Assembly (NCBI GenBank): GCA_023663615.1
Contig: JAMPHA010000001.1
Coordinates: forward strand, 153,928 to 217,927
Reading direction: 5' to 3'
DNA from: Clostridium sp.
GTDB taxonomy: Bacteria; Bacillota; Clostridia; Lachnospirales; Lachnospiraceae
DNA: 64,000 nt
The notes under the pieces are model-generated. The model did no database searches. It saw nothing but the letters and a program-made list of their open reading frames with translations, and had not been told where the DNA came from. Position numbers and translations under genes: made by a program. How positions within the stretch are numbered: position 1 is the first letter of the stretch; every line of letters begins with the position of its first letter. Positions 50,488-50,970 of the stretch are shown piece by piece.

Positions 50488-50970
50488 ATGAGTGAGGAAA
50501 TGGAATATATGAGAGAAGATCGGGTTTATCACGGCAGTAATCTGATTGTGGAGAAGCCGCGTGTCATGATAAATGGTCACTACAAGGATTTTGGGTATGG
50601 TTTTTATTGCACAAAATTGGAAAAGCAGGCAAAGCGGTGGGCATTAACGAAAAGAGGTGATTCGGTCGTGAATTGTTATGTTTATACGCCGAATGCCAGT
50701 CTGAAATATTGTGTTTTTGAACAAATGTCAGAAGAATGGCTGCAGTTTGTTGTTGATTGTAGAAGCGGTATGGAACATCCATATGATATTGTGGAAGGTC
50801 CGATGGCGGACGATCAGATATGGGATTATGTGGAAGATTTTATGGATGGTAATATTTCTAAGGAAGCATTTTGGGAATTGGTAAAATTCAAATATCCGAC
50901 CCATCAAATCGTTTTTTGCACGGAAGCCGCATTGCAGACCTTGCGTTTTGAAGGGAGTTCTATATTATGA
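50488..50970 (+). CDS. DUF3990-like protein (160 aa); possible H-Y-E ADP-ribosyltransferase fold
   Basis: RVYHGSNLIVEKP...DFGYGFYCTKLEKQAKRWA...IVEGPMADDQIWD...THQIVFCT matches my recollection of the DUF3990 family. The family call is from memory. Confidence 0.65.
   Translation: MSEEMEYMREDRVYHGSNLIVEKPRVMINGHYKDFGYGFYCTKLEKQAKRWALTKRGDSVVNCYVYTPNASLKYCVFEQMSEEWLQFVVDCRSGMEHPYDIVEGPMADDQIWDYVEDFMDGNISKEAFWELVKFKYPTHQIVFCTEAALQTLRFEGSSIL

What the first reader, a model, noticed from the sequence alone, without database searches (positions are those of the whole stretch)
50488..50970. DUF3990 protein shows H-Y-E ADP-ribosyltransferase-like motifs
Three motifs appear in the right order and plausible spacing. 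YHGS (His15) resembles the HG[ST] NAD-binding motif of PARP, diphtheria-toxin, DarT and Tpt1-type ARTs. DFGYGFYCT...AKRWA (Tyr40) resembles the PARP block FGKGIYFA...SKSANY. A later acidic IVEGPMADD (Glu103) could supply the catalytic Glu. If correct, DUF3990 would be an NAD-dependent modifier of DNA, RNA or protein, and DUF3791 its antidote or regulator.
Basis: inference. Interest (0 to 1): 0.75.

Follow-up and report, generated by a model that had tools for sequence, protein, structure and literature searches.

The report
DUF3990 ART-fold toxin with helical partner

Summary
The ORF and all three motifs are present at the stated coordinates. Homologues are 153 aa, so the true start is probably M8 (50509). 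It is a DUF3990 protein (Pfam E = 7e-51). An AlphaFold model (pLDDT 91) matches mainly ADP-ribosyltransferases: PARP4/2/1, RES toxins, exotoxin A, Arr, RhsP2 and phage ART-PolyVal domains.

- **His and Tyr motifs:** YHGS and GFYxT, plus Trp51 eleven residues after the Tyr, are invariant across three DUF3990 subfamilies.
- **Glu103:** it is not conserved. It is E in 68% of representatives and M/K/I/Y/T in sister subfamilies. By strand order it lies on the strand before the canonical catalytic strand. Better candidates are D/E100, D109 and Q140.
- **Prior knowledge:** Pfam already places DUF3990 in the ART clan, and DUF3990 is a known Rhs toxin tip.
- **Partner:** the downstream 156-aa gene abuts or overlaps DUF3990 in 79 of 80 loci. 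The pair equals PADLOC candidate PDC-M10. The partner has no Pfam DUF3791 hit, is all-helical with no structural relative, and looks weakly like a fusion of two DUF3791-type units.

Most likely this is a toxin–inhibitor, addiction or abortive-infection cassette. The verdict is partly supported and largely already known.

The parts
50509..50970 (+). Gene A: DUF3990 protein, 153 aa from the likely start M8. The longest ORF starts at 50488 and gives 160 aa. It corresponds to PADLOC PDC-M10A and has a predicted ART fold.
50527..50538 (+). YHGS motif on strand beta-1 (His15 in 160-aa numbering). It is the counterpart of the HG[ST] NAD-binding motif.
   Evidence: His 88% and Gly 92% conserved in representatives. 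Invariant across subfamilies. Aligned to PARP HG[ST].
50587..50640 (+). DFGYGFYCT (Tyr40 on beta-2) followed by the helix QAKRW. Trp51 lies 11 residues after Tyr40, the same spacing as the Tyr-X10-Tyr pair of diphtheria toxin, exotoxin A and PARP1.
   Evidence: The exotoxin A spacing was checked on the verified sequence. The DT and PARP1 spacings are from memory.
50782..50814 (+). YDIVEGPMADD: strand beta-5 plus the N-cap of the next helix. D100, G104 and D109 are family-invariant. Glu103 (50794-50796) is variable.
50896..50916 (+). PTHQIVF: the start of the penultimate strand beta-6. Gln140 (50905-50907) is invariant. By strand order this is the position of the catalytic Glu in canonical ARTs (compare PARP12 PTIFVVF, PARP10 PSIFVIF, PARP1 YNEYIVY).
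   Evidence: Secondary structure. Conservation. PARP sequences. The mapping itself is inference.
50967..51437 (+). Gene B: 156-aa all-helical partner, PADLOC PDC-M10B. Its ATG overlaps the TGA of A by 4 nt (ATGA). It is probably a fusion of two divergent DUF3791-type units.
51428..51447 (+). Terminator-like hairpin at the end of B.
   Evidence: This is a consensus match only, and the number found is within that expected from shuffles.
49380..50450 (+). Long ParA-like ATPase immediately upstream, possibly co-transcribed (promoter-like site at 49360-49388). It is not a conserved part of the cassette, being present in only 2 of 80 related loci.

Best explanation
Genes A (50509..50970) and B (50967..51437) form a self-contained, horizontally mobile two-gene cassette.

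**Gene A.** A is a small ART-fold enzyme of the DUF3990 family. It binds NAD+ with a PARP / diphtheria-toxin-type pocket: His15-Gly-Ser on beta-1, Tyr40 on beta-2, and Trp51 on the following helix. It uses NAD+ to damage the cell, most likely by mono-ADP-ribosylating a macromolecule (nucleic acid or protein).

It lacks a conserved canonical catalytic Glu. The chemistry probably depends on other invariant residues (D/E100, D109, Gln140, Arg92) or on the substrate.

**Gene B.** B is a translationally coupled, all-helical protein built from two DUF3791-like units. It keeps A inactive by binding, not by enzymatic reversal.

**The pair.** It behaves as a toxin-inhibitor module that stabilises mobile DNA and/or triggers abortive infection on phage attack.

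**Shown versus inferred.** Shown here: family membership, fold class, conservation pattern, strict A-B pairing, mobility, and association with type I R-M loci and plasmids. Inferred: NAD+ use, toxicity, neutralisation by B, the defence role, and which residue is catalytic.
For: - **Family:** Pfam DUF3990 at E = 7e-51.
- **Prior classification:** Pfam places DUF3990 in the ART clan (PMC7955679).
- **Fold:** the AF2 model has pLDDT 91. Foldseek against the PDB returns ARTs for every listed match but the first. The viral library returns ART-PolyVal domains. 13 of 49 family members hit ART-PolyVal. hhalign to a PARP profile gives P = 0.0014 over the His/Tyr block.
- **Conservation:** H15, D34, Y40, T42, W51, W84, R92, D/E100, G104, D109 and Q140 are invariant across three subfamilies.
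- **Toxin use elsewhere:** DUF3990 forms the C-terminal tip of T6SS Rhs effectors that have downstream immunity genes (PMC4524185, PMC10763514).
- **Pairing:** B follows A directly in 79 of 80 genome loci, while the flanking genes differ. In the window the two genes overlap by 4 nt, ATGA.
- **Catalogue match:** A and B match PADLOC PDC-M10A and PDC-M10B at 7e-76 and 2e-77.
- **Defence and plasmid context:**
  - HsdS is the commonest immediate neighbour (8 of 143), with ResIII/HSDR_N and integrases also seen.
  - HsdS-DUF3990 fusions exist.
  - A Moraxella copy lies between hsdM and hsdS.
  - Homologues occur on 89 plasmids, including 17-23 kb C. botulinum plasmids, where the pCLI copy examined lies next to a replication gene.
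- **Local setting:** the window copy lies in a low-GC island beside a PDC-S01-type ATPase.
- **Partner fold:** B is all-helical with no macrodomain or hydrolase match.
Against: - No experiment on any DUF3990 protein was found in the papers searched. PDC systems are explicitly untested candidates.
- Foldseek E-values against solved ARTs are weak (1e-3 and worse, TM about 0.45).
- Sequence and profile searches against the PDB find nothing.
- No conserved Glu sits at an identifiable catalytic position, so activity could be atypical or absent.
- Most immediate neighbours are housekeeping genes, so defence-island association is modest.
- B has no recognisable DNA-binding domain, unlike classical type II antitoxins.
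- I could not access model coordinates, so no residue was placed in the NAD pocket by superposition.
Confidence: 0.6

Rival explanations
1. A is an NAD+-degrading enzyme (glycohydrolase or phosphorylase, like RES-domain toxins) rather than a transferase. The cassette would kill or arrest the cell by NAD+ depletion.
For: RES toxins of the Xre-RES TA system are the PDB matches with the best mutual TM-scores and a similar size: 9r35_D at TMq 0.49 / TMt 0.51, and 6gw6_A at 0.46 / 0.48. The absence of a conserved catalytic Glu is compatible with a hydrolytic or phosphorolytic outcome. NAD+ depletion is a common abortive-infection strategy (own knowledge).
Against: The conserved motifs are of the His-Tyr-aromatic (PARP / diphtheria-toxin) type, not the Arg-Glu-Ser signature of RES domains (the RES signature is from own knowledge). 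The nearest sequence relatives are ART-PolyVal domains, which are annotated as transferases.
Confidence: 0.15
2. One reading: a canonical H15-Y40-E103 catalytic triad, with Glu103 playing the role of PARP1 Glu988.
For: Glu103 is at least 90% conserved within the close PDC-M10A subfamily (alignment A2). It lies on a beta-strand, beta-5. The E/I alternation recalls the H-Y-E versus H-Y-I PARPs (table in PMC7955679).
Against: - Glu103 is only 68% conserved across 89 representatives.
- It is replaced by M, K, I, Y or T in the PDC-M13 and PDC-M42 subfamilies, which keep all other motif residues.
- Beta-5 is third from last in the strand order. In DT, exotoxin A and PARPs the catalytic Glu opens the penultimate strand, and the strand before it reads LDAITGP (ExoA) or YDSxV (PARP10/11/12), resembling YDIVEGP (mapping inferred).
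Confidence: 0.07
3. A-B is an accessory or regulatory module of type I restriction-modification systems, not a toxin-inhibitor pair. For example, it might ADP-ribosylate an R-M subunit or DNA to modulate restriction.
For: HsdS is the most frequent immediate neighbour. HsdS-DUF3990 fused ORFs exist. A Moraxella copy sits between hsdM and hsdS.
Against: Only about 8 of 143 immediate neighbours are HsdS. Most loci, including this window, have no adjacent R-M genes. The same domain is used as an Rhs toxin tip. It also occurs on small plasmids with no R-M genes among the annotated neighbours.
Confidence: 0.1
4. A is a catalytically dead ART-like binding module (a pseudoenzyme).
For: No conserved canonical catalytic Glu. 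Structural similarity to active ARTs is weak.
Against: About eleven polar or aromatic residues are strictly invariant, including the full NAD-pocket set His/Tyr/Trp, across subfamilies that are only 25-37% identical. The domain is also deployed as a toxin domain on Rhs effectors.
Confidence: 0.05

Closest known systems
Pfam PF13151 DUF3990 (listed in the Pfam ADP-ribosyl / ART clan)
   Same: The protein is a full-length, high-scoring member: 172 bits over profile positions 3-152 of 152. NCBI already names the identical protein 'DUF3990 domain-containing protein'.
   Different: Nothing differs. This is an ordinary member, and the family has no experimentally established activity in the papers searched.
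PADLOC phage-defence candidate PDC-M10, and its sisters PDC-M13 and PDC-M42
   Same: A matches PDC-M10A (E = 7e-76) and B matches PDC-M10B (E = 2e-77). The genes are adjacent and co-directional.
   Different: - PDC-M13 uses separate DUF3791 and 'X' proteins of about 70 aa flanking the DUF3990 gene.
- PDC-M42 uses a longer DUF3990 and a 138-aa partner, in one of the two cases examined fused to an HTH.
- All are untested candidates.
ART-PolyVal (PF18760), the ART domain of phage and conjugative-element polyvalent proteins
   Same: It is the only other Pfam family hit recurrently: 13 of 49 members, best E = 1e-4. It also dominates the viral structure matches.
   Different: Scores are below the Pfam threshold (17 bits against 31.2). 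For the window protein only the N-terminal His/Tyr half aligns (residues 12-71). DUF3990 here is a stand-alone protein with a dedicated partner, not a domain of a giant protein.
PARP / diphtheria-toxin-type H-Y-E ADP-ribosyltransferases (PARP1/2/4, exotoxin A, cholix, DT)
   Same: They share the fold class. They also share HG[ST], an aromatic Tyr on beta-2, and a second aromatic residue 11 positions later on the following helix.
   Different: DUF3990 has no conserved Glu at the catalytic position. The topologically equivalent strand begins with an invariant Gln140, preceded by a variable H/N/D/E. A two-helix insertion replaces the acceptor loop.
ART-type toxin-antitoxin and effector-immunity systems: DarT-DarG, Xre-RES (ParST, MbcTA), RhsP2-RhsI2
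   Same: Each has a small ART-fold toxin encoded next to a cognate neutralising protein. RES and RhsP2 appear among the structural matches. As in darTG, the toxin gene comes first (own knowledge).
   Different: B is neither a macrodomain (as DarG is) nor an Xre HTH protein. It is an all-helical protein with no structural relative in the PDB. The conserved residues of A differ from the RES signature.
Rhs5-CT of Serratia marcescens and RhsA-CT of Enterobacter bugandensis (T6SS effectors)
   Same: The C-terminal toxin domains of these effectors are recognised as DUF3990.
   Different: Those are secreted polymorphic-toxin tips with downstream immunity genes. The window protein is a free-standing cytoplasmic protein. 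The activity of the Rhs tips is also unknown.

Membership tests
Pfam DUF3990 (PF13151) | Score above the curated gathering threshold over the full profile | tested here: met
   172.3 bits against a cut-off of 32.2, covering profile positions 3-152 of 152.
ADP-ribosyltransferase superfamily | ART fold (split beta-sheet core) | tested here: met
   The AF2 model has pLDDT 91. Of the 50 PDB matches listed, all but the top-ranked one are ARTs, with probability 0.9-1.0 for the top 25, although E-values are only 1e-3 to 1e-1. Viral matches are ART-PolyVal domains.
ADP-ribosyltransferase superfamily, H-Y-E clade | HG[ST] on strand 1, plus Tyr on strand 2 and a second aromatic on the following helix | tested here: met
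   These residues are invariant across three subfamilies. They align to PARP with hhalign P = 0.0014. The Y-X10-W spacing equals the Y470-Y481 spacing in the verified ExoA sequence.
ADP-ribosyltransferase superfamily, H-Y-E clade | Conserved catalytic Glu (or Asp/Gln) opening the penultimate core strand | tested here: inconclusive
Gln140 is invariant at the topologically expected strand. D/E100 and D109 are also invariant. No coordinates were available for superposition, and hhalign could not align the C-terminal half reliably.
ADP-ribosyltransferase superfamily | NAD+ binding and ADP-ribose transfer or NAD+ cleavage | not testable with these tools
   This requires biochemistry.
PADLOC PDC-M10 candidate system | Both component HMMs hit adjacent co-directional genes | tested here: met
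   PDC-M10A at 6.6e-76 and PDC-M10B at 1.7e-77. The genes overlap by 4 nt.
Anti-phage defence system | Protection against phage infection | not testable with these tools
   PDC systems are untested candidates. No paper mentions PDC-M10.
Pfam DUF3791 (for gene B) | Pfam hit above threshold | tested here: not met
   The window protein gives no hit at E <= 10, and its 120 closest relatives have no precomputed Pfam domain. 15 of 120 relatives give weak hits, best E = 0.051.
DUF3791-type partners of DUF3990 (remote homology of gene B) | Profile-level similarity to bona fide DUF3791 and 'X' partners, in collinear order | tested here: inconclusive
   - hhalign aligns B residues 13-90 to DUF3791 at P = 0.0056, and B residues 91-141 to X at P = 0.03.
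- A Bacteroides X domain hits PDC-M10B model positions 91-144 at E = 0.0014.
- The signals are consistent but individually weak.
Type II toxin-antitoxin system | Small adjacent, co-transcribed genes that move together | tested here: met
   B follows A in 79 of 80 loci with unrelated flanks. Homologues are on 89 plasmids.
Type II toxin-antitoxin system | Toxicity of one partner, neutralisation by the other, and an autoregulating DNA-binding antitoxin | not testable with these tools
   No HTH or other DNA-binding domain was detected in B. Function needs experiments.
DarTG | Macrodomain antitoxin that removes ADP-ribose | tested here: not met
   The B model is all-alpha with 9 helices. It has no PDB fold match (E > 2) and no profile hit in the PDB.

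The most novel reading that the evidence does not exclude
DUF3990 enzymes may be a Glu-less branch of the His-Tyr ARTs. Their chemistry would rest on the invariant D/E100, D109, Gln140 and Arg92 set, and they would modify nucleic acid (or burn NAD+). Held in check by a fused double-DUF3791 inhibitor, they would act as a widespread gut and rumen abortive-infection module that is often embedded in type I R-M loci.
Probability: 0.3. Interest if true: 0.6.

Novelty: already known. Interest (0 to 1): 0.3.

Why it matters
DUF3990 cassettes are very common in gut and rumen Firmicutes and Bacteroidota. There are 2710 clusters at 50% identity, and the sister system PDC-M13 was counted 3324 times in rumen genomes (PMC13356809). 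They also serve as Rhs toxin tips.

No DUF3990 protein has a demonstrated activity in the papers searched. Showing what they modify would add a new ART toxin family and possibly a new defence system.

For this scan the finding mainly re-derives an existing database classification. My added value is threefold:
- the proposed catalytic Glu103 is the wrong residue to mutate;
- D100, D109 and Q140 are better targets;
- the partner is a fused, divergent DUF3791-type protein.

Tried and rejected
- **PDB sequence searches.** phmmer and a profile hmmsearch of A against PDB sequences gave no meaningful hit.
- **hhalign against single sequences.** Comparing the DUF3990 profile with single DT, ExoA and PARP1 sequences was not significant. 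Only the N-terminal motifs lined up.
- **hhalign against PARP profiles.** Profiles of 9 and 20 PARP sequences were built from the PeerJ supplement. The His/Tyr block aligned reproducibly (P = 0.0035 and 0.0014). The C-terminal alignment changed between runs, so it cannot identify the third residue.
- **The Arr resemblance.** Arr has IVEPxGxxEDD, ending in D84, which looks like IVEGPMADD. I verified the Arr sequences and numbering against the PDB. The collinear hhalign instead puts Arr's strand on beta-3 of DUF3990, so I rejected the resemblance as evidence.
- **Related-locus search.** The search for related loci with the diverse alignment A1 failed because there was no conserved stretch. It worked with A2.
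- **Fold of B.** Fold and profile searches found nothing. The ferritin-like and TenA rows have probability 0.05 or less.
- **Literature.** Searches for PF13151 and PDC-M10 returned nothing.
- **Model coordinates.** They are not exposed to the scripting sandbox. I could not superpose the model on NAD-bound ARTs, so the strand-order mapping remains an inference.

Full report
**1. The observation**

The ORF 50488..50970 (+) exists and encodes 160 aa. It is a full-length DUF3990 protein: Pfam PF13151, E = 7e-51, 172 bits against a 32.2-bit cut-off.

- YHGS with His15 (codon 50530-50532);
- DFGYGFYCT with Tyr40 (50605-50607);
- AKRWA with Trp51;
- IVEGPMADD with Glu103 (50794-50796).

Almost all of the 120 closest homologues listed are 150-155 aa (most 153), and the identical NCBI protein ('DUF3990 domain-containing protein [Clostridium sp.]') is 153 aa. 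Translation therefore probably starts at M8 (50509), which is preceded by GAGGAA.

**2. Is it an ART?**

The idea is correct but not new. A 2021 paper on ART-like families lists DUF3990 among the 23 families of the Pfam ART clan (PMC7955679).

Independent evidence obtained here agrees:
- **Pfam cross-hits.** The window protein gives a sub-threshold hit to ART-PolyVal (E = 0.012, residues 12-71). So do 13 of 49 diverse DUF3990 proteins (best E = 1e-4), and no other family recurs.
- **Solved structures.** An AlphaFold2 model built on 124 homologues is confident (pLDDT 91, pTM 0.85). Foldseek against the PDB returns, apart from the top-ranked cyanophage pre-ejectosome chain, only ARTs among the 50 listed matches. 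These are PARP4, PARP2, PARP1, the RES toxin of Xre-RES, exotoxin A, cholix toxin, Arr and RhsP2. E-values are weak (1e-3 to 1e-1, TM about 0.45) but probabilities are high.
- **Viral structures.** Against predicted viral structures the matches are ART-PolyVal domains of polyvalent phage proteins, plus one viral DUF3990-like protein at E = 1e-11.
- **Profile comparison.** hhalign of the DUF3990 profile against a 20-sequence PARP profile aligns YHGS, FGxGFY and the following helix with PARP HG[ST], FGKGxYF and SKSA-Y (P = 0.0014). The PARP profile was taken from the supplement of PMC7955679.

Direct sequence or profile searches of PDB sequences find nothing.

**3. Conservation of the three proposed residues**

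Conservation was measured in 89 full-length representatives of 50%-identity clusters. The family has 2710 such clusters at E <= 1e-3.

| Residue | Conservation in 89 representatives |
|---|---|
| His15 | 88% |
| Gly16 | 92% |
| Phe39, Tyr40 | 93% |
| Thr42 | 87% |
| Trp51 | 79% |
| Glu103 | 68% (Ile in 24%) |

I then compared the window protein with DUF3990 proteins of two other subfamilies. One is PADLOC PDC-M13, from Clostridium, Bacteroides, Segatella and Moraxella plasmids. The other is PDC-M42, from loci L064 and L069.
- **Invariant residues:** H15, D34, Y40, T42, W51, W84, R92, D/E100, G104, D109 and Q140.
- **Position 103:** E, M, K, I, K, Y, M, E, K, T across the ten sequences.

His and Tyr pass it. 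Glu103 fails.

**4. Where the catalytic residue probably is**

This section is inference. The model's element order is:
- beta-1 (His15), beta-2 (Tyr40), helix (Trp51);
- beta-3, beta-4, helix;
- beta-5 (IVEGP, containing Glu103), two helices;
- beta-6 (HQIVF), a short helix, beta-7.

In diphtheria toxin, exotoxin A and PARPs the catalytic Glu opens the penultimate strand. That layout is from my own knowledge. I verified the ExoA sequence and numbering against the PDB.

The strand before the catalytic one reads LDAITGP in ExoA and YDSxV in PARP10/11/12, which resembles YDIVEGP. The catalytic strand reads YNEYIVY (PARP1), PSIFVIF (PARP10) and PTIFVVF (PARP12), which resembles PTHQIVF.

On this reading Glu103 lies one strand too early. 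The canonical position is then occupied by invariant Gln140, or by the variable H/N/D/E residue 139.

hhalign could not settle the C-terminal alignment. A tempting similarity to the Arr D84 motif was not supported by a collinear alignment. D/E100 and D109 remain candidates.

**5. The partner and the cassette**

The downstream gene B (50967..51437, 156 aa) overlaps A by ATGA. In 79 of 80 related genome loci B follows A directly; the one exception ends at a contig edge.

The flanks are unrelated. The upstream ParA-like gene recurs in only 2 of 80 loci. The 143 immediate neighbours fall into 196 Pfam families.

PADLOC models identify A as PDC-M10A (7e-76) and B as PDC-M10B (2e-77). PDC systems are 145 untested candidates derived by 'guilt-by-embedding' in BREX, DISARM and type I R-M loci (bioRxiv 10.1101/2024.01.29.577857).

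Evidence consistent with that origin:
- the commonest neighbour family is HsdS (8 of 143), with ResIII/HSDR_N and integrases also present;
- some representatives are HsdS-DUF3990 fusions;
- a Moraxella plasmid copy lies between hsdM and hsdS.

Homologues also sit on 89 plasmids, including 17-23 kb C. botulinum plasmids, where the pCLI copy examined lies next to a replication gene. In the window the pair lies in a low-GC island (about 47-53 kb) beside a PDC-S01-type ATPase.

**6. Is B a DUF3791 protein?**

Not by Pfam. The window protein has no hit, and its 120 close relatives have no precomputed domain.

Its AF2 model (pLDDT 89) is nine helices, with no structural or profile relative in the PDB. 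It is therefore not a macrodomain or a known ADP-ribosyl hydrolase.

Other DUF3990 genes are flanked by one annotated DUF3791 protein and a second small protein, 'X', each 67-86 aa, or by a fusion of the two. X and DUF3791 are paralogous (hhalign P = 1e-4).

Four weak signals link B to these partners:
- B residues 13-90 align with DUF3791 (P = 0.0056), sharing F-x-C-x-M-I-E-R-x-A and L-H-[ST]-Q;
- B residues 91-141 align with X (P = 0.03);
- a Bacteroides X domain hits PDC-M10B model positions 91-144 (E = 0.0014);
- 15 of 120 B relatives give weak DUF3791 hits.

Together these suggest, but do not prove, that B is a fused and divergent DUF3791 + X protein.

**7. Mechanism proposed**

A is an NAD+-using ART-fold toxin and B is its stoichiometric inhibitor. 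The pair would work as an addiction and/or abortive-infection cassette.

Support for toxicity is indirect. DUF3990 is the toxin tip of T6SS Rhs effectors that have downstream immunity genes (PMC4524185, PMC10763514).

The main rival is NAD+ degradation rather than transfer, because RES toxins are among the best structural matches.

**8. Novelty and verdict**

The gene is an ordinary, already annotated member of DUF3990. The ART relationship is already in Pfam, and the gene pair is already catalogued in PADLOC. No paper in the searched library reports an activity for any DUF3990 protein.

The finding is real and its main inference is right, but it re-derives known classification. One of its three residues is wrong.

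Noticed in passing
window 47000-53000: A low-GC island (GC 0.34-0.45, against 0.50-0.57 in the flanks). It holds a PDC-S01-type ATPase (47358..48755; AAA_14 + DUF4143), a Cro/C1 HTH gene (48873..49034, minus strand), a long ParA-like ATPase (49380..50450), the A-B pair, and an HTH_3 protein (51545..52018, minus strand). It looks like an acquired defence or plasmid-derived islet.
   Followed up: partly
window 49360-50450: An 11/12 sigma-70-like promoter match (TTGACA-17-TACAAT) overlaps the annotated start of the ParA-like ORF. Its true start may therefore be an internal Met, and parA-like, A and B may form one operon. A Bacteroides uniformis plasmid also has a ParA gene two genes upstream of its DUF3791-DUF3990 pair (L081).
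   Followed up: no
proteins P0253, P0254, P0255, P0257 (representatives): These proteins are 310-411 aa, with a type I R-M specificity (Methylase_S) domain at the N-terminus and DUF3990 at the C-terminus. They are either true fusions or read-through calls where the cassette abuts hsdS.
   Followed up: partly
L064 4907-6218 (-) and L069 2662-3793 (-): A second, longer DUF3990 paralogue (233-235 aa) with its own partner (PADLOC PDC-M42; in L064 the partner carries a C-terminal HTH). It sits within 1-2 kb of the PDC-M10 pair, so two different DUF3990 cassettes are clustered.
   Followed up: partly
L084 1192-1710: On a Parabacteroides distasonis plasmid the DUF3990 gene has an in-frame stop codon and is unannotated. 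Both flanking DUF3791 genes are intact. This pattern would fit loss of a toxin with retention of its antidotes.
   Followed up: no
L010, L032, L044, L058, L059, L066, L068: A-B pairs whose A gene is 67-75% identical to the window's lie on contigs binned as Bacteroides, Prevotella and Methanobrevibacter. This reflects either cross-phylum or cross-domain transfer, or binning errors.
   Followed up: no
window 50967-51437 (protein B): Within the close family B has many invariant polar residues: C20, E24, R28, H48, H57, C129, D133, E142. That is unusual for a purely steric inhibitor, so a metal site or an enzymatic or sensor role cannot be excluded.
   Followed up: no
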